The position numbers and the translations under genes are program-made. From the NCBI GenBank assembly GCA_013239625.1, contig MU057102.1, positions 3,739,782 to 3,803,781 of the forward strand: 64,000 bases of DNA, written 5' to 3'. This DNA is from Lama guanicoe (lineage: Eukaryota). The notes beneath the pieces were generated by a model. The model made no database searches and was not told the origin of the DNA. It saw only the letters and a program-made list of their open reading frames with translations. Numbering within the stretch: the first letter of the stretch is position 1; every line of letters starts with the position of its first letter. Below, in pieces: positions 13,661 to 58,843 of the stretch.

Positions 13661-13938
13661 GTCAGTGGGTGTGGACACTGGCCCCAGGCCAGGGCCTCTG
13701 CCTCACAGAGAGGGAGTCTGCCCTTAGGATGCCATATCCACCCTGGCCTGCAGCTAACCTTGGCCAGCAGTGCTTCCCCTCCCCCTGAGTTCCCCAAGGG
13801 AGGAAGCCTGTGTGTCCTGCTTCTTGCATTCAAGGGGAGCTTAGCCTGGGGAATCTTCCCTTCGGCCCCCTTTGTGGACAGGGAGGGTGGCGGGGCTCGT
13901 CCCCTGTGCTCTGCTCAGTGTCCCTCCCCTGCCCACAG

Positions 13939-14089
13939 ACGTCCCTACGGCAGATGAGCCAGACGCGGTTCTATGTGGCTGAGAGAAGAGCAGTGGCCCC
14001 ACGTGTCTCTCTGTTCGTGGGAGGTCTGCCTCCTGGCCTGTCTCCCCAGGAGTACAGCAGTCTTCTGGACGAGGCTATGTCCCTGAAAG
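13939..14089 (+). CDS. DGKQ: DGK-theta exon 13
   Basis: TSLRQMSQTRFYVAE...SLFVGGLPPGLSPQEY... Confidence 0.92.
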
Positions 14090-14436
14090 GTGTGGCTGCC
14101 TGGGCTGGTCTGAGGCTCTTGGTCACAGCGGGTCAGGGCGGGTGTCCTGAGAGCAGGCCTGTGGGCTGCTGTGCAAGGCTGGGTCCTCCTGCTCCCCTGC
14201 TACTCCCAGTCACTGTTGGAGCCTTTGCTGAGCTGGTTTCTGGCCGAGAGGGTCTCTGTCCTCACCTCTGGGGCCCAGACCCCGTCACCTCCTCTGAGGG
14301 GTTTCTGAGATGCCTGCCCTGGGCCCTGGGGGGGGGCCCTGGGCCTGGAGTGGGGGGTGCTGTCTGGGATGGGCAGCCCTGGGAGGCAGGGCCTGGGGCA
14401 GGTGCTGCACTTCCTGACCACAATCCATCTTTGCAG

Positions 14437-14475
14437 CTGGCCTGGTGTCCATGAGCCACATCTACTCCTCTCAAG
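14437..14475 (+). CDS. DGKQ: DGK-theta exon 14
   Basis: GLVSMSHIYSSQ; 39 nt, phase-preserving. Confidence 0.88.
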
Positions 14476-15102
14476 GTGAGATGCCCCACAGGCTGAGATC
14501 AGGTTTGCTCAGAGGCCATTCATGGGCTAGATGTGAGCCCTGCTCTCTTGCTTTGTCCCGCTGGTGACCCGTGGGCCCAGGAAACGTTTGTGTTTAATTT
14601 CCTGGCTCGTGGCTGTAACGCTCTTGCCTAAAAGCGTGACTGAGGTGCAGAGGACGTGTCCCCCGTGACCCGTCTGTGGGTGCACACCTTTTACCACGGA
14701 AAACGTCACATCACCCGAGAAGTGGCAGAGAAGTACCATGAGCCTTGCGTCCCCTCTGTGGGTCCATAGCAGTGACCCATGCCCTCCGTGCCTCTCTTGG
14801 GTCCTGGGAGGCTCGGCGCGGCCGGGAGACTCAGGTGCATGTCTGCTCCCCTTGCCTCCTGGGAGCCTTGCTTGTACCCCTCAGCACGCCCTGTCTCTGA
14901 GCCCAGCTGTCCTTGAAGCCTCCCCCCAGGGGAGAGAGTCACGCACCATGGGGCATCTTGTGATGGGCTGGCTGGAAGCAGGCCGTGGCCAGAGATGAGG
15001 CCATTGGCCCGCTGGAGGAGGCGAGGCAAGGCCCCTGGCCCAGGTACCACAGGGGCTGGAGCTCCAGGACAGACACCTGAGCTCATGGCTGACCTGCCAC
15101 AG

Positions 15103-15218
15103 GTGCCGTGGTGCTGGACGTGGCCTGCTTCGCCGAGGCCGAGCGGCTGTATATGCTGGTCAGGGACACGGCTGTTCACAGCCGGCCGCTGACTGCCCTG
15201 GTGCTCCCGGATGTGCTG
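15103..15218 (+). CDS. DGKQ: DGK-theta exon 15
   Basis: AVVLDVACFAEAERLYMLVRDTAVHSRPLTALVLPDVL. Confidence 0.92.
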
Positions 15219-16532
15219 GTGAGTAGCACCGGGTAGGGGCCTGGGGGGCGTGGCCTCTATGGCTGATTTGTCTAATACTTGGAGCAGTTGGAGCAAAGTC
15301 CGAGTTGGCTATGCCTGGCTGATTCACACCAAGGGAGGGCCCAAGGCCCAGTGGTGAGGCGTGCACACCCGTTGAGTGGCCCTGCAGTGGTTGCCTCCTG
15401 AGGGCTGGCCTGTATTTGTGACTGTGCATGGCCCTTGGTCTCGCTTGAGTCACTGGCCCTGGCCCCACCCTCCCTGCCCAGGAGGCCTCTGGACCCCTGC
15501 TCACACCCTGGGCCTCCTCTGGCCAGACTTTGGAGGCTGTCCTAAAGACCCAGCAGTGCCCTGGACCCCGCCCTGTGCTGGGTATGTGCCTTGGCCCTCA
15601 GCCTTGCTGGCCCCCAAGGAACCCCCACCCAGGTGTCCATGACCCGTGACCCTAGTTCAGGCTGAGCAGAATTAGAGCGGGCTGAGTTTAGGGTCTGTGG
15701 CTGAGTGGGCAACATCCTCAGGTCTCAGTTGCCCTGCCCCAACCCCGAGCGGGGTCAGGACCAGTGGCTCTCCCACTGTCCAGACAGGGATGCAGGCACT
15801 GCAGATCAGGGCCCCTGTGGGCAGACACGGGCGGGTGATGCCAACATGTGCTTTCTCTCTCCTGGCAGCTGCCTGCCCTGGGGTGAGCGGGTAAGTGGTG
15901 ACTGTAGGCAGCTCTGCCCAGTAGGTCACACGTCACCCCAAGTGTGTCCTACCTAGGCCTTGAGCCACGGCTGAGCCCGTGAGCCGCCACTGCCCCCATG
16001 CCTGCGCCTGTCTGTCTCCTGTCACCCAGCATCCCTTGTCGTAGGGTCCCCAGCTCCCTTGCCACCTCTCTTGGACACTTTCTGTGGCTGTGTGTGGGGG
16101 ATGAGCTTTGTCCCAAGGCCGAGAGGCCCCCTCCTGACTGCGGTGTGAGTGGCTCGGGGCCCTGGGAGCCAGGTGGCTCCGAGGGGGCAGGTGGCGTCCT
16201 GCGTAGGCTTCCAGCCTGGGCTTGCAGGCCGCAAGCATCAGGCAGCGAGTGTGGCCTGACGACTCACCTCGTGGCGGGTGCGGCATGGCCTGTGTGCTTG
16301 GAGCTCCCGGCTGGCCAGCACCACCCTGCCCCATCAGCCAGTGGACTGTGCGTGCCCCCTCTGCTGTGGGAGGCGACCCGAGTGGCCACTGGCTAGGTGG
16401 GGCTTGTGTGTGCCTCTGTCAGGAGGGGGCTCTGGCCAGGTGGGCTCAGGGCCAGGGCCGCCGCTGCCCAGGCAGCTCTGCCTCTGGGTGGCAGCCATGG
16501 GAGCCCGCCCTAACGCAGCTCCTGTCTATCAG

Positions 16533-16684
16533 CACACGAAGCTGCCCCCAGACTGCTGCCCCCTCCTTGTGTTTGTGAACCCCAAAAGCGGAGGCCTCAA
16601 GGGCCGCGATCTGCTCTGCAGTTTCCGGAAGCTGCTGAACCCGCACCAGGTCTTCGAGCTGACCAACGGGGGGCCTCTGCCTGG
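16533..16684 (+). CDS. DGKQ: DGK-theta exon 16
   Basis: [28 protein letters not shown]... Confidence 0.95.
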
Positions 16685-16878
16685 GTGAGTCCTGTGGGGC
16701 CCCACTGCTGCAGGAGCAAGAGTGCTCGCATGGCTCACGGGCAGAATCCTCAAGGGCCGTCGTGGACGTGGGAGGAGCTGCGACCCGCTTCTGCCCCAGG
16801 GGTGATTGCCTGTGCCCTCCTGTTGCGTGGCTGTGAATGTGGCTGGTGGTAGGATACACCGTGTCTCCCTGCTGCCAG

Positions 16879-17027
16879 GTTCCACGTGTTCTCCCAGGTA
16901 CCCTGCTTCCGGGTGCTGGTGTGTGGAGGGGACGGCACTGTGGGCTGGGTGCTCGCCACCCTGGAGGAGGTGCGGCACCGTCTGGCCTGCCCAGAGCCTG
17001 CCGTGGCCATCCTGCCCCTGGGCACAG
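16879..17027 (+). CDS. DGKQ: DGK-theta exon 17
   Basis: [15 protein letters not shown]...ILPLGT (ATP-binding GGDG motif). Confidence 0.95.
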
Positions 17028-17151
17028 GTGAGGTCACCCAGGGGGTTGAGGGGGGCTCGGGGGCCTGTCCCTTCTGCCCCGTTTCAGCCGGGGCCTGGGG
17101 TGGTGGGCAGGTGGTTGTGGAGAATCAGTGTGGTTCTTGCCGGTGTCCCAG

Positions 17152-17330
17152 GGAATGACCTGGGCCGGGTCCTCCGCTGGGGGGCGGGCTACAGTGGAGA
17201 GGATCCATTCTCTGTGCTGCTGTCGGTGGACGAGGCTGACGCTGTGCTCATGGACCGCTGGACCATCCTGCTGGACGCTCAGGAGGCTGGTGGAGGGGAG
17301 GGCAGTGTGGTGGACGCAGAGCCGCCCAAG
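17152..17330 (+). CDS. DGKQ: DGK-theta exon 18
   Basis: [19 protein letters not shown]...MDRWTILLD...EPPK. Confidence 0.95.
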
Positions 17331-17616
17331 GTACTGCTGTGCCCAGGTCAGGGTGTGGCACCGTTGGGCCCCTGTGGGCGACTACCACATCTGTCCAGGC
17401 CCTTGTCCTCGTCCCAGCCACACCTTGGTGTCGGCGCCAGTGCTGTCCCCTGAAGCTGAGGCACAGGGTGGGGACTGGCCGTGCTGGGTCATGTGCCACA
17501 CTGCCCCCTCTTGGGTGCAGAAGCAGCTCTGAGACGAGGAGGCAGGACCCACCTGGGGGGGGTGGGGAGCACCTGGTGGGGGTGGACTGGGCCACGGGAG
17601 GATTTCCTGTTCTCAG

Positions 17617-17717
17617 ATCGTACACATGAGTAACTACTGTGGGATTGGCATCGATGCAGAGCTGAGCTTGGACTTCCACCAGGCTCGGGAGGAAGAGCCT
17701 GGCAAGTTCACGAGCAG
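17617..17717 (+). CDS. DGKQ: DGK-theta exon 19
   Basis: IVHMSNYCGIGIDAELSLDFHQAREEEPGKFTSR. Confidence 0.95.
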
Positions 17718-17850
17718 GTGCTGGAGGCGCGGGGGCAGGAGCGGTTACTTCCTGGGGCCCCCGGCAGTGACAGAGGGACAGGGGCTAGGACCCGGGGGCT
17801 GCCGCGGGGGTCGCACCCCACCTTGTGATGCAGGCTGCCCTGCCCCACAG

Positions 17851-17997
17851 GCTCCACAACAAGGGCGTGTACGTGCGGGTGGGGCTGCAGAAGCTCAGCC
17901 AGGCCCGCGGGCTGCACCGGGAGATCCGGCTGCAGGTGGAGCAGCAGGAGGTGGAGCTGCCCAACATCGAGGGCCTCATCTTCATCAATATCCCCAG
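17851..17997 (+). CDS. DGKQ: DGK-theta exon 20
   Basis: LHNKGVYVRVGLQK...IEGLIFINIP. Confidence 0.95.
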
Positions 17998-18094
17998 GTG
18001 CCAGGGAGGCGGGGGGGTGCTCCTGGGCTCTGTCCTCCTCCGGCCTTCTGTCCAGCGGGCACTCTTACCTGTATGCCCCTCCCTCCTGGTGCAG

Positions 18095-18206
18095 CTGGGG
18101 CTCGGGGGCCGACCTGTGGGGCTCTGACAATGACTCCAAGTTCGAGAAGCCACGCATGGATGACGGGCTGCTGGAGGTGGTGGGGGTGACGGGCGTCGTG
18201 CACATG
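18095..18206 (+). CDS. DGKQ: DGK-theta exon 21
   Basis: WGSGADLWG...DDGLLEVVGVTGVVHM. Confidence 0.95.
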
Positions 18207-18865: not shown

Positions 18866-20537
18866 AGGCGGGCCCTGGAGTCCTGCAGAAGTGCCTGCGG
18901 TAGAGGGACTCAAACACAGCTCTGACCACAGGTGTCTCCTTGTCCCCATCCCTGTGCCACATGGAAGCTGCAGGGTGGGTGCTGGGCATGGGGCTCCCAC
19001 TGGCCACCCCTCTCACCCCCTGGGGCCCGGGCCACTGTCCTTGGGGGGCAAGCACTCCTCCCTTTGTGTTCCTGTGCCTCCATTGAACCCCTTGAGAGGG
19101 GCAGTGCTGGACTGCACCTCCCACCCCTCTGGCTACGCTCACGGGCCCTGGATGTGCCCAGGACGGACCCAGGACCCCTCAGGCACTATTTCCCCTGGCC
19201 TCACTTCACCACTGGACCTGGGCAGGGTGCCTGCTGTCTGTCTTGGGGGAGGTGTGTCCTCTCCTGGCCTGGGTAGGGCCTGGCTGGGCCTGGCCTTGAG
19301 CTGGGTTGGTGGCCCTGGAGTGACAGGGATGCACCTGGGGAGGCAGGTGCTTGGCTACTCCCTGGAGACCTGGTGTGCTGCCCAGCAGGGAGCAGCAGGC
19401 CTGGCCGGGAGCCCAGAGGGAGTCAGGAGAGTGTGAAGTGGGGAGCAGTGGCTTTAATCACTGAGCTCAGTGTGGGGCCTTTCCTTCCATCTGTCCAGTC
19501 GCCAAGCCAGTTCCATGTCTGCTCGTTGCTTCTCCATGGGGGGGGCTCAGTGCCATGGGACATGGCTGTGGCTGCTGGGTGGGCTGCTCACCACAGCCCT
19601 GCTGCTGAGCCCAGGTCCAGCTGGCTCAGCCCACAGGGGAACCTGATCAAAATGTAACAAGCTGCCTAGCGCGCCCCGCGCCCCAGAAGGCCCGCCTCTC
19701 CTGACTGTCTGGTACCCTCGCCCTTGGCAGTCGGGCCTCCTAGCCTTCACACCTCAGGCGGCAGCATCACCAGGACGTTTGGCCTCAACCTCAGATGTGG
19801 CCCCACCCAGCCCCCCAAGCTTGTGCTGAAACCACCCAGACATGCATCGTAAGGGCTGCAAGTGACGAGCAGCCTTCTTGGGTTCCTCTGGAACACGTGT
19901 GATGTGTGAGACTCTCACGTCTGTGTCCCTGGGGGTGGACTTGGCTTTTGCTTTGCAGGCCCTGTGGGTGGTCAGGTCCTCCGTATTTAAGTGAGTCTGT
20001 GTCCCCAGAGGGGGCTCCGCACTGATGCCCTCCCTCACGTGTAACTTACCACTACCTGAAGGTGACCATAACTTATATCTGGGACAAATACAGTCCGGGA
20101 ATCCAGTCCTGCATGGTCTCCTGCTTCTCTGCGCCTGAGACCAGTCTGTGGCGTGGGGAGGGCTGGCAGGCAGCCCAGCACCACTGGGGCATTCCGTGGG
20201 CGGGGACAGTGGGCCTGGGGAGGGGCTGCTACCTGTCCAGGATGCGGGCCATGTCATACACCCACGGTCGCCTCGGGCTGAGGCTGTGGTCTCCCCGCTG
20301 GTCCCCAGCTGCCCCCTGCCCGCAGCCCATCTTTGCTTGACGGAGGCAGAGACAGAAAAGTAGACCTGGGCGGACAGAAGGATGTGGCAACACAAGTGAA
20401 GCTCCCATGAGACTCTTGACTGCGCAAGCAGATGACAACCTGCGGACTCATGCCACGCAGGCGTCTCACAAGGAAAAGACTCAAGCTGGCCCCGCGCATG
20501 CACCGACCTCAGGCTGGGGTTGGGGGTGCCGGTGGCA

Positions 20538-21216
20538 CTAGCAGGGGGCAGGGTGGAGCAGGGAGCGCGTGTCGTCCCTGGGGTCCCCAGGCGCTGGCGG
20601 GGTGGGTGCCGGCCGCAGGGCAAGGCGCGGCAGGGCCCACAGGATGGCCAGTGCCAGGCGCACGAGGAGCCGCAGCAGCAGAAAGGCGAAGGGCACAGCG
20701 ATCTGCATGAGGTGGAAGATGGCCGTGCTGAACCTGGTCAGGATGCAGGTGGAGGCAAAGGCCAGCAGGCTGGCACAGGGGTACAGTGCGAGCTTGGCAA
20801 ACATGAAGGCGTGCTCCTGGCCGCCAAAGCGTACGGAGGGCTGCAGCGTCTCCCCCTCCTGCAGCAGCGCCGTGGTCCAGATGGCAAACTGGAAGATGCT
20901 GGCAAAGAAGATGATGGCGCAGCTCACGCGCACCCTCTCCAGCTCGTCGTGGGGCTGCCGTGCGAAGGCCGAGGTCTGCTGGTAGGCCAGGGGCAGGCCG
21001 CCCACGAAGGCCAGCGAGAGTGTGTTGAGCAGCCCCATGGGCTGCGTGGCCTTGCGGACGTGCAGGAAGAGCGAGTGGTGAGCGAACCAGAGCAGGCCGA
21101 CTGTGGCGAAGGAGCCGAAGTAGGCCAGGAAGCGAGGCCCCGACTCGCTCAGTGCTGCCACCAGGCTGCCGCTGAACTTCTCCCGCACGTCCTTCGGGTC
21201 CGGGACGTTGTCTTCG
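20538..21216 (-). CDS. TMEM175: TMEM175 last coding exon
   Basis: EDNVPDPKDV...LAYFGSFATVGLLWFAHHSLF...LLHPAPC*. Confidence 0.95.
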
Positions 21217-22377
21217 CTGAGGAGTGAGACACGTGGCATTTGCAGCAGCCGTACTGAGGGCTTCGGCTCAGGGCTGCTGGCCCACCCTGTCCCAGGCCTG
21301 AGGGGCTGCATCCCGCCCTCCCCCCCCAACTTCAGATGAATGACGTGCACTGAGTTTTCCTTGATCTGTGCTCACTGCAGGCAGGATACTAAACAATTCA
21401 GTGCTCACAAGCTCAAATTTAACTGCATCTTGGGTTTCTCTGCTGACTGGCAGCCCTGCCTGCTGGCCCCCAGGGCTGGTGAGCAGCCTGGGCCCTGAGC
21501 CGTCAGCCCCTCTGGCCCACGTGGGTGGGGGCTTGTGAGGTCTGTCCACCCTCCTGCAGCTTCCTGCAGTCCACAGTGGTCCTGCAGATCTGAGGGGGTT
21601 TGCCTCTGAGGTTCTGATTCCTGGGCCGAACTTCACTGTAAGGACCAATGTGAAGGCACGCTGGGCCCAGGCTTCTCCCCTCATGGAGGTGGTGGGTGCT
21701 GTGGAGGGGCTGAAGCAGCCTGGGCCACCTCTGTCCTCACAACAGCAGGGGACAGAGATGGGGGGTTTCCTGAGGGTCTGCACCTGGGCCCCTGGGCCCT
21801 GGGCCCCACAGCCACTCCGTGCTGCCCCCGCTGGGGGGACCTGCAGAATGGCTCTGGCTGCAGGGCAGAGGCAAAGCCAGCTCATTCCAGAACCACAGGT
21901 CTAGGCCTCAGAGACTGGTACCAATGGGCATTTGCTCCCGACTTCTTAAAAATTCACAAATGACGTAAGAAAACACTGCCAAGAGAAAACTGGGAGCGTC
22001 GTGACTGCAGACTGTCAGAAACAGAACAGAAAATCAGGGTGTTTTAACATTGACAAAGTAAGAACAAACTGGAACGTGACCGAGGAATAAAACACTACAA
22101 AAAAGGACGGAAGGCTGGAAAAGCAGCAGGTAGGACAGTTAGAAATAAAAGGCCAGTAACTCAGGCTGGAACTCAGACTGACTGGAGGGCAGGCCAGGCG
22201 GAGCAGAAGAGCTGCAGTGAAGGGTGGGGGCAGGAACTCAGTGGAACTTGGGGACCGACATAGGGAGACGAGAAGCCACCCACACAGTCAGGTGGGTCCT
22301 CAGGGTGGGGCTCCCTCTGGGGAGGGGGGCAGGGAGACCTCAGGGCCTCTGGGGTTGGAGCCTGGGCGGGTCCTCAC

Positions 22378-37336: not shown

Positions 37337-37481
37337 ATGTCGCTGCTGCAGTCTGCGCTCGACTTCCTGGCGGGCCCGGGCTCCCTGGGTGGCGCTGCCG
37401 GCCGCGACCAGACTGACTTCGTGGGGCAGACGGTGGAGATGGGCGAGCTGCGGCTGCGGGTGCGGCGCGTCCTGGCCGAGG
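37337..37481 (+). CDS. GAK: GAK exon 1
   Basis: MSLLQSALDFLAGPGSLGGAAGRDQTDFVGQTVEMGELRLRVRRVLAE; GCCGCCATG Kozak. Confidence 0.96.
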
Positions 37482-47224: not shown

Positions 47225-47286
47225 GAGGGTTTGCATTTGTATATGAAGCTCAGGATCTGGGAAGTGGCAGAGAGTATGCACTGAAG
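47225..47286 (+). CDS. GAK: GAK exon 2
   Basis: GFAFVYEAQDLGSGREYALK. Confidence 0.95.
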
Positions 47287-47966: not shown

Positions 47967-48026
47967 AGATTACTGTCTGACGAAGAGGAGAAGAACAGAG
48001 CCATCATTCAGGAAGTTTGTTTCATG
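47967..48026 (+). CDS. GAK: GAK exon 3
   Basis: RLLSDEEEKNRAIIQEVCFM. Confidence 0.95.
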
Positions 48027-48876: not shown

Positions 48877-48991
48877 AAAAAACTTTCAGGTCACCCCAAT
48901 ATCGTCCAGTTTTGTTCTGCAGCATCAATAGGAAAAGAGGAGTCGGACACGGGGCAGGCCGAGTTCCTGCTGCTCATGGAGCTCTGCAAAG
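48877..48991 (+). CDS. GAK: GAK exon 4
   Basis: KKLSGHPNIVQFCSAASIGKEESDTGQAEFLLLMELCK. Confidence 0.95.
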
Positions 48992-51151: not shown

Positions 51152-51294
51152 GGCAGCTGGTGGAATTTTTAAAGAAAGTTGAGTCTAAAGGTCCGCTCTC
51201 GTGCGATACTGTTCTGAAGATATTTTATCAGACATGCAGAGCGGTGCAGCACATGCACAAGCAGAAGCCACCCATCATCCACAGAGACCTCAAG
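51152..51294 (+). CDS. GAK: GAK exon 5
   Basis: QLVEFLKKVESKGPLSCDTVLKIFYQTCRAVQHMHKQKPPIIHRDLK. Confidence 0.95.
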
Positions 51295-54766: not shown

Positions 54767-54892
54767 GTTGAAAACTTACTACTCAGTAACCAGGGGACCA
54801 TTAAGCTGTGTGACTTTGGCAGTGCCACGACCATATCCCACTACCCCGACTACAGCTGGAGCGCCCAGCGGCGGGCCCTCGTGGAGGAGGAG
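54767..54892 (+). CDS. GAK: GAK exon 6
   Basis: VENLLLSNQGTIKLCDFGSATTISHYPDYSWSAQRRALVEEE. Confidence 0.95.
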
Positions 54893-57371: not shown

Positions 57372-57461
57372 ATCACCAGGAACACGACCCCCATGTACCG
57401 GACACCGGAGATTGTGGACTTGTACTCCAACTTCCCGATCGGCGAGAAACAGGACGTCTGG
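57372..57461 (+). CDS. GAK: GAK exon 7
   Basis: ITRNTTPMYRTPEIVDLYSNFPIGEKQDVW. Confidence 0.95.
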
Positions 57462-58707: not shown

Positions 58708-58843
58708 GCCCTGGGCTGCATCCTGTACCTGCTGTGCTTCCGGCAGCACCCCTTCGAGGATGGAGCGAAGCTCCGCATAGTCAACGGGAAGTACTCCATC
58801 CCTGCCGGCGATACACGCTACTCCGTGTTCCATGACCTCATCC
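58708..58843 (+). CDS. GAK: GAK exon 8
   Basis: ALGCILYLLCFRQHPFEDGAKLRIVNGKYSIP...HDLI. Confidence 0.95.

What the first reader, a model, noticed from the sequence alone, without database searches (positions are those of the whole stretch)
48976..48978. GAK kinase gatekeeper is Met instead of Thr (T123M equivalent)
Seen: exon 4 reads GAG TTC CTG CTG CTC ATG GAG CTC TGC = EFLLL-M-ELC, and the exon join (145+62+60 nt) makes this residue 123, followed by E124 and C126. Recalled: human GAK has Thr123 as gatekeeper with hinge E124/C126, whereas the NAK paralogues AAK1 and BMP2K have Met. The small Thr gatekeeper contributes to GAK binding by anilinoquinazolines/quinolines such as gefitinib and erlotinib. 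Thr-to-Met is the classic resistance substitution (EGFR T790M) and would need only a CpG transition if the ancestral codon was ACG. Inference: a natural GAK with altered inhibitor sensitivity and possibly ATP affinity, relevant because GAK is a host-directed antiviral target. It could be a fixed lineage change, a private SNP or a base-call error.
Basis: partly seen in the sequence, partly recalled or inferred. Interest (0 to 1): 0.7.

Follow-up and report, generated by a model that had tools for sequence, protein, structure and literature searches.

The report
Methionine gatekeeper in hoofed-mammal GAK
Camels, llamas' kin, cattle, sheep, deer and whales carry methionine instead of the usual threonine at the drug-pocket 'gatekeeper' of the kinase GAK, while pigs and nearly all other mammals keep threonine, so GAK-blocking drugs would likely bind differently in these animals, though nobody appears to have measured it.

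Summary
ATG at 48976-48978 is codon 123 of GAK in a South American camelid, and Thr123 is the published gatekeeper. It is neither a base-call error nor private. Met123 is in 39 of 39 camelid, ruminant and whale rows, 0 of 3 pigs/peccary, and 1 of 122 other mammal rows (an unnamed record that groups with free-tailed bats). Four DNA runs and two spliced RNA contigs agree. Catalytic residues are intact and no other ATP-pocket change goes with it. Met is the residue of the paralogues AAK1/BIKE and recurs in 8 of 45 distant GAK-like proteins. So this is an old, tolerated, repeatedly gained return to the family's common gatekeeper. A CpG transition is likely, but the ancestral codon was not read. 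Published structures put Thr123 at the back pocket used by gefitinib and SGC-GAK-1, so weaker binding is a fair prediction (about 60%), untested. Ten literature searches found no report. Value: a practical species caveat and a natural inhibitor-resistance candidate allele, not new biology.

The parts
48976..48978 (+). GAK codon 123 (ATG, Met): kinase gatekeeper
   Evidence: Thr in human PDB chains; gatekeeper per PMC6312924
48877..48991 (+). GAK exon 4 (residues 90-127, with gatekeeper and hinge E124-C126)
   Evidence: spanned by RNA contigs with 0 differences and joined to exon 3
37337..37481 (+). GAK exon 1 coding part (start codon, residues 1-49)
47225..47286 (+). GAK exon 2 (Gly loop to K69)
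   Evidence: join to exon 3 in RNA run X15
47967..48026 (+). GAK exon 3 (alphaC helix, E85, M89)
51152..51294 (+). GAK exon 5 (to the HRD motif)
54767..54892 (+). GAK exon 6 (C190, DFG)
57372..57461 (+). GAK exon 7
58708..58843 (+). GAK exon 8; three more exon matches follow at about 59092, 60644 and 62345, and the gene runs out of the window

Best explanation
This is the normal GAK gene of a South American camelid, whose gatekeeper Met123 is shared with all camelids, ruminants and whales sampled but not pigs; it is likely a tolerated, nearly neutral change that would fill the small back pocket beside Thr123 and so likely weaken binding of GAK-selective anilinoquin(az)olines while leaving catalysis intact. 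Shown: the residue, its spread across species, expression in spliced RNA of a related camelid, intact catalytic motifs, and no companion pocket change. Inferred: origin by an ACG-to-ATG CpG transition, gained two or three times in mammals (or once in artiodactyls with loss or lineage sorting in pigs). Predicted by analogy with AAK1/BIKE: the Met side chain removes the Thr123-Glu124 hydrogen bond and the 'dry' pit that SGC-GAK-1 fills, and may favour Met-pocket binders such as SP600125.
For: One row per species, 171 rows: Met in Tylopoda 2/2, ruminants 15/15 and whales 22/22; Thr in Suina 3/3 (Sus, Phacochoerus, Catagonus), in 121 of 122 other mammal rows and in 7/7 non-mammals. Of 478 stored GAK-like records, 94 have Met, 290 Thr and 94 lack the exon-4 motif. 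The 94 Met records are 93 artiodactyl-like plus P0018; no Thr record that could be placed falls in the Met clades (20 short ones were not placed). P0018 sits inside a starred free-tailed-bat clade and differs from its Thr neighbour P0296 at 3 of the first 340 positions, so it is an independent gain. Of 41 pocket positions checked, only 123 separates the Met clades; 127 (K/R) and 89 (M/L) vary without regard to it. Among distant GAK-like proteins with a J or PTEN motif, 35 of 45 have Thr and 8 Met. Four ACG-Thr codons of this gene (32, 114, 196, 222) stay Thr in 134 of 134 mammal rows, so Met is permitted specifically at 123 (their codons in other species were not read). Structure papers: T123 deepens the GAK pocket where AAK1/BIKE have Met (PMC4780864); in AAK1 Met fills the site that SGC-GAK-1 occupies (bioRxiv 2020.03.06.976563, modelling); Thr123 is part of a water network with gefitinib (PMC6129943).
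Against: No binding or kinetic data exist here. The Thr123 contact with gefitinib is water-mediated and described for one of two crystal forms. In EGFR T790M much of the resistance comes from tighter ATP binding rather than a clash (recalled, paper not held). The mammalian Thr codon was not read directly: the metagenome scan gave only non-mammal-like loci (ACT 4, ACA 1, ACG 1, ATG 1 in 7 of 12 loci). The only mammalian hint is a mouse T123A primer reading GCG, one base from ACG. Position 123 changes 3 times on the tree against 13 for the Thr/Met site 295, so it is constrained, and neutrality is not shown. Hippo, giraffe, chevrotain, musk deer and pronghorn were not found in the searches.
Confidence: 0.6

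Rival explanations
1. The change is real and fixed but pharmacologically near-silent: flexible Met123 moves aside and inhibitors bind about as well.
For: The hinge bond to C126 is the main anchor and is unchanged. Other GAK-specific pocket residues (L125, F133, C190) are kept. Gefitinib still binds EGFR T790M in vitro (recalled).
Against: SGC-GAK-1 is over 16000-fold selective against the other three NAK kinases, two of which have Met (bioRxiv 376772), and the modelling paper ties this to the pit beside Thr123.
Confidence: 0.27
2. Met123 was selected: it tightens the regulatory spine or ATP binding and raises GAK activity, changing clathrin traffic in camelids, ruminants and whales; repeated gains reflect selection.
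For: It is kept in 39 of 39 rows across camelids and Cetruminantia, at a site where about two thirds of kinase positions (169 of 253) never change. It was gained again in a bat record. GAK activity is sensitive to this residue: T123A is poorly active until rescued (PMC6312924). Thr-to-Met gatekeepers activate some kinases (recalled).
Against: No companion substitutions. Pigs do without it. CpG mutation alone could give repeats. No codon data, so no dN/dS test was possible.
Confidence: 0.12
3. Base-call error or private variant of the sequenced animal.
For: None found. Logan contigs drop rare variants, so low-frequency Thr alleles cannot be excluded.
Against: Identical to RefSeq alpaca; the same residue in Camelus, ruminants and whales; 4 of 4 DNA runs and 2 spliced RNA contigs read ATG.
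Confidence: 0.01

Closest known systems
Human/mouse GAK (NAK family; PDB 4O38, 4C57, 5Y7Z/5Y80)
   Same: Orthologue: 16 differences from human in residues 1-292, the DGKQ-TMEM175-GAK neighbourhood (this order in human is recalled), and all catalytic and hinge residues.
   Different: Gatekeeper Met123 instead of Thr123; the only pocket difference that follows the lineage.
AAK1 and BMP2K/BIKE (NAK paralogues)
   Same: Met gatekeeper (M126, M130; PMC4780864).
   Different: They have an aromatic hinge residue, a hinge one residue longer, and no PTEN-like/J domains; artiodactyl GAK is a natural hybrid, a GAK pocket with an AAK1 gatekeeper.
EGFR T790M acquired resistance mutation
   Same: The same Thr-to-Met swap at the same structural position, with overlapping drugs (gefitinib; PMC6129943).
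   Different: Germline, fixed for tens of millions of years (dating recalled), not selected by a drug; effect on binding not measured.
Engineered GAK T123A/T123G analogue-sensitive alleles (PMC6312924)
   Same: The same residue changed.
   Different: Those enlarge the pocket and cripple activity until rescued; Met enlarges the side chain and is carried by healthy animals.

Membership tests
GAK (cyclin G-associated kinase / auxilin 2) | N-terminal NAK kinase domain followed by PTEN-like/C2 and J domains | tested here: met
   Window residues 1-292 are identical to P0126, which has Pkinase and PTEN_C2 above cut-off and DnaJ at 24.7 bits, just below its 27.8 cut-off. The later domains lie outside the window.
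GAK (cyclin G-associated kinase / auxilin 2) | Orthologous locus, single copy | tested here: met
   DGK-theta (+) and TMEM175 (-) upstream; one exon-4 match in G000 (match counts are lower bounds).
Active protein kinase | Intact VAIK-Lys69, Glu85, HRD (171-173), Asn178, DFG (191-193) | tested here: met
Active protein kinase | Measured phosphotransfer with Met123 | not testable with these tools
   needs an enzyme assay
Gatekeeper residue | Residue just before the hinge, with the hinge Cys at gatekeeper+3 | tested here: met
   M123-E124-L125-C126; T123 named gatekeeper in PMC6312924; Cys as GK+3 in bioRxiv 117630
T790M-type resistance substitution | Lowers inhibitor potency by steric fill or higher ATP affinity | not testable with these tools
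   only analogy with AAK1/BIKE
CpG-driven Thr-to-Met change | Ancestral codon ACG | tested here: inconclusive
   no mammalian Thr codon retrieved; mouse T123A primer has GCG

The most novel reading that the evidence does not exclude
Camelids, ruminants and whales, and independently a free-tailed bat, carry a natural, viable gatekeeper-resistant GAK that is largely blind to SGC-GAK-1, gefitinib and erlotinib and has a shifted ATP affinity. Cattle or sheep cells versus pig cells, or a T123M knock-in, would then be a ready control for the open question of which effects of these drugs (antiviral, anti-tumour, toxic) really run through GAK.
Probability: 0.4. Interest if true: 0.55.

Novelty: new variant of a known kind. 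Interest (0 to 1): 0.36.

Why it matters
GAK is pursued as a host-directed antiviral and cancer target and is a frequent off-target of quinazoline drugs. If Met123 blunts these compounds, results in cattle, sheep, goat, camelid or whale cells cannot be carried over from human, mouse, dog or pig, and veterinary use would need re-testing. It would also supply an inhibitor-resistant allele already shown by nature to be viable; the lymphoma target-validation preprint I searched has no passage on a gatekeeper or resistant mutant. For evolution it is one more case of a recurrent Thr/Met swap at a constrained site. It does not point to a new mechanism.

Tried and rejected
Error or private SNP: rejected. 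Camelid-specific change: rejected, it is shared with ruminants and whales. All-artiodactyl change: rejected, three Suina have Thr. Compensating pocket changes: none found; L35M is shared with pigs and lies outside the pocket. Number of origins in artiodactyls: unresolved. The GAK tree leaves camelids, pigs and Cetruminantia as an open fork; a camelid+Cetruminantia clade is not rejected (p-AU 0.224), nor camelid+Suina (0.352), on a quick 17-row tree; the careful tree did not finish. Six short or partial rows were left out of the 165-row tree, and 27 of 161 mammal rows with damaged exons were left out of the per-site count. Reading the mammalian ancestral codon from metagenome contigs failed. 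RNA runs X19 and X20 cover the codon only with low-depth unspliced contigs whose differences were partly not shown, so they were not counted. Hippo and other missing artiodactyls did not turn up in three protein searches and three cluster look-ups, which list at most 15 members per cluster. No structure was predicted: at about 94% identity to solved GAK it would not decide the question. Earlier findings of the scan: none in four look-ups.

Full report
Observation. The window reads GAG TTC CTG CTG CTC ATG GAG CTC TGC AAA G|GT, with ATG at 48976-48978. Joining exons 37337-37481, 47225-47286, 47967-48026 and 48877-48991 makes it residue 123, with E124 and C126 behind it (exon 5 was one base off there and was corrected). 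Human GAK chains in the PDB match exon 4 at 37 of 38 residues and have Thr here. Residues 1-292 are identical to RefSeq Vicugna pacos GAK, P0126, and differ from the Camelus protein at 137 and 246, so the window is a South American camelid. DGK-theta and TMEM175 lie upstream and exon 4 has one match in the genome.

Not an error. Four of four DNA runs laid (coded organisms A-D, three studies) show no other letter at the codon. Two are flagged as possible sources of this DNA and a third is near-identical, but X13 differs at four intron places and agrees. In two of four RNA runs, from a camelid about 3% different in introns, one contig spans all of exon 4 with no difference, at depth 95 and 415 against about 16 for the neighbouring intron contig, and the exon 3-4 join is seen in both. 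These are contigs, so rare alleles would be missed.

Spread. From three protein searches and three cluster look-ups I took one row per species, 171 rows. Met: camelids 2 of 2 (alpaca, and one sequence listed for Camelus dromedarius and ferus), ruminants 15 of 15, whales 22 of 22. Thr: pig, warthog and peccary (3 of 3), 121 of 122 other mammal rows (horses, rhinos, carnivores, pangolins, bats, insectivores, primates, rodents, rabbits, afrotherians, marsupials, platypus) and 7 of 7 reptiles, birds and frog. Across all 478 stored GAK-like records, 94 have Met, 290 Thr and 94 lack the motif; 93 of the Met records are artiodactyl-like. The exception, P0018, is an unnamed Logan record, 95.1% identical to Molossus GAK, inside a starred clade of free-tailed bats whose other three rows have Thr. 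It is a single record and could be a polymorphism. Hippo, giraffe, chevrotain and musk deer were not found.

History. The tree needs three changes at this site: the bat, plus either two gains (camelids; ruminants and whales) or one gain and a return in pigs. GAK does not resolve the split among camelids, pigs and Cetruminantia: a camelid+Cetruminantia clade is not rejected (p-AU 0.224), so one gain with lineage sorting is also open. My weights are parallel gains 45%, gain plus reversion 30%, sorting 25% (judgement). The change is tens of millions of years old in either case (dating recalled). The CpG route is plausible but not shown. The mouse T123A primer reads GCG, one base from ACG (PMC6312924, section 22). 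The metagenome scan returned only distant loci.

Constraint and tolerance. Of positions 40-292, 169 of 253 never change among 134 mammal rows with intact exons; 123 changes three times, against 13 for the Thr/Met site 295 on the 165-row tree. Four Thr residues coded ACG in this gene stay Thr in 134 of 134 rows. Among 149 distant relatives from the 50% library, those with a crude J or PTEN motif have Thr in 35, Met in 8, Leu in 1 and Ser in 1 of 45; those without have Met in 53 and Thr in 26 of 104. Met is thus the commonest gatekeeper among those without these motifs and recurs within GAK. K69, E85, HRD, N178, C190 and DFG are intact, and of 41 pocket positions that I chose (from the papers and from recall) none but 123 tracks the Met lineages.

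Mechanism. Shown in print: T123 is the gatekeeper, and shrinking it to Ala cripples mouse GAK until rescued (PMC6312924, passages). T123 replaces Met or Leu of other NAKs and deepens the pocket, and the Met of AAK1/BIKE is thought to favour SP600125 (PMC4780864, passages and section 12). Modelling places a Thr123-Glu124 hydrogen bond beside a dry pit that SGC-GAK-1 fills and that Met fills in AAK1 (bioRxiv 2020.03.06.976563, passages). Thr123 joins a water network with gefitinib in one crystal form (PMC6129943, passages and section 8). SGC-GAK-1 is over 16000-fold selective within the family (bioRxiv 376772, passages). Inferred: Met123 fills that pit, so trimethoxyanilino-quinolines should lose most, gefitinib and erlotinib less, and Met-pocket binders might gain. 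Against: GAK also differs from AAK1/BIKE at L125, hinge length and F133, all kept here, and EGFR T790M acts largely through ATP affinity (recalled). I put a clear loss of binding at about 60%, a near-silent effect at about 27%, and a selected change in activity at about 12%.

Novelty. Ten full-text searches found no paper with GAK T123M and, from titles and abstracts listed, none on a species difference at this residue. I saw passages or sections of seven papers (also bioRxiv 117630, and bioRxiv 2024.10.21.619489, which has no passage on a gatekeeper or T123), no supplements and no figures. Alignments in figures or supplements, and subscription journals, could hold it. The residue is plainly in public RefSeq/UniProt proteins. 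It is a new variant of a known kind.

Verdict. The feature is real, old and shared by most even-toed ungulates. Its worth is practical: a species caveat for GAK pharmacology and a viable candidate resistance allele, testable in one binding experiment. Interest 0.36.

Noticed in passing
protein P0018 (unnamed Logan record): A GAK grouping with free-tailed bats also has Met123, while its nearest row P0296 and two Molossus species have Thr: an independent gain or a polymorphism.
   Followed up: partly
window 48976-48978 and database isoforms P0144, P0169, P0186: Met123 adds an in-frame ATG (ctcATGg); some predicted Bos, Capra and Monodon isoforms start there. The product would lack the kinase N-lobe, and these are probably annotation artefacts.
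   Followed up: no
GAK residue 96 (exon 4, window about 48895-48897): All 16 toothed-whale rows have Ala instead of the otherwise invariant Pro in HPN (122 of 122 other non-artiodactyl mammal rows have Pro).
   Followed up: no
GAK residue 89 (exon 3, about 48024-48026): The regulatory-spine residue is Met in most mammals but Leu in 39 of 120 non-artiodactyl rows, including mouse and rat, as noted in PMC6312924.
   Followed up: no
GAK residue 295 (exon 9, about 59095): A Thr/Met site that flips at least 13 times among 165 rows; used as a contrast for site 123.
   Followed up: partly
window about 13800-18200 (+) and about 20500-21400 (-): Exons of diacylglycerol kinase theta and TMEM175, the usual neighbours of GAK (52 of 141 long frames or GAK-side frames were scanned).
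   Followed up: partly
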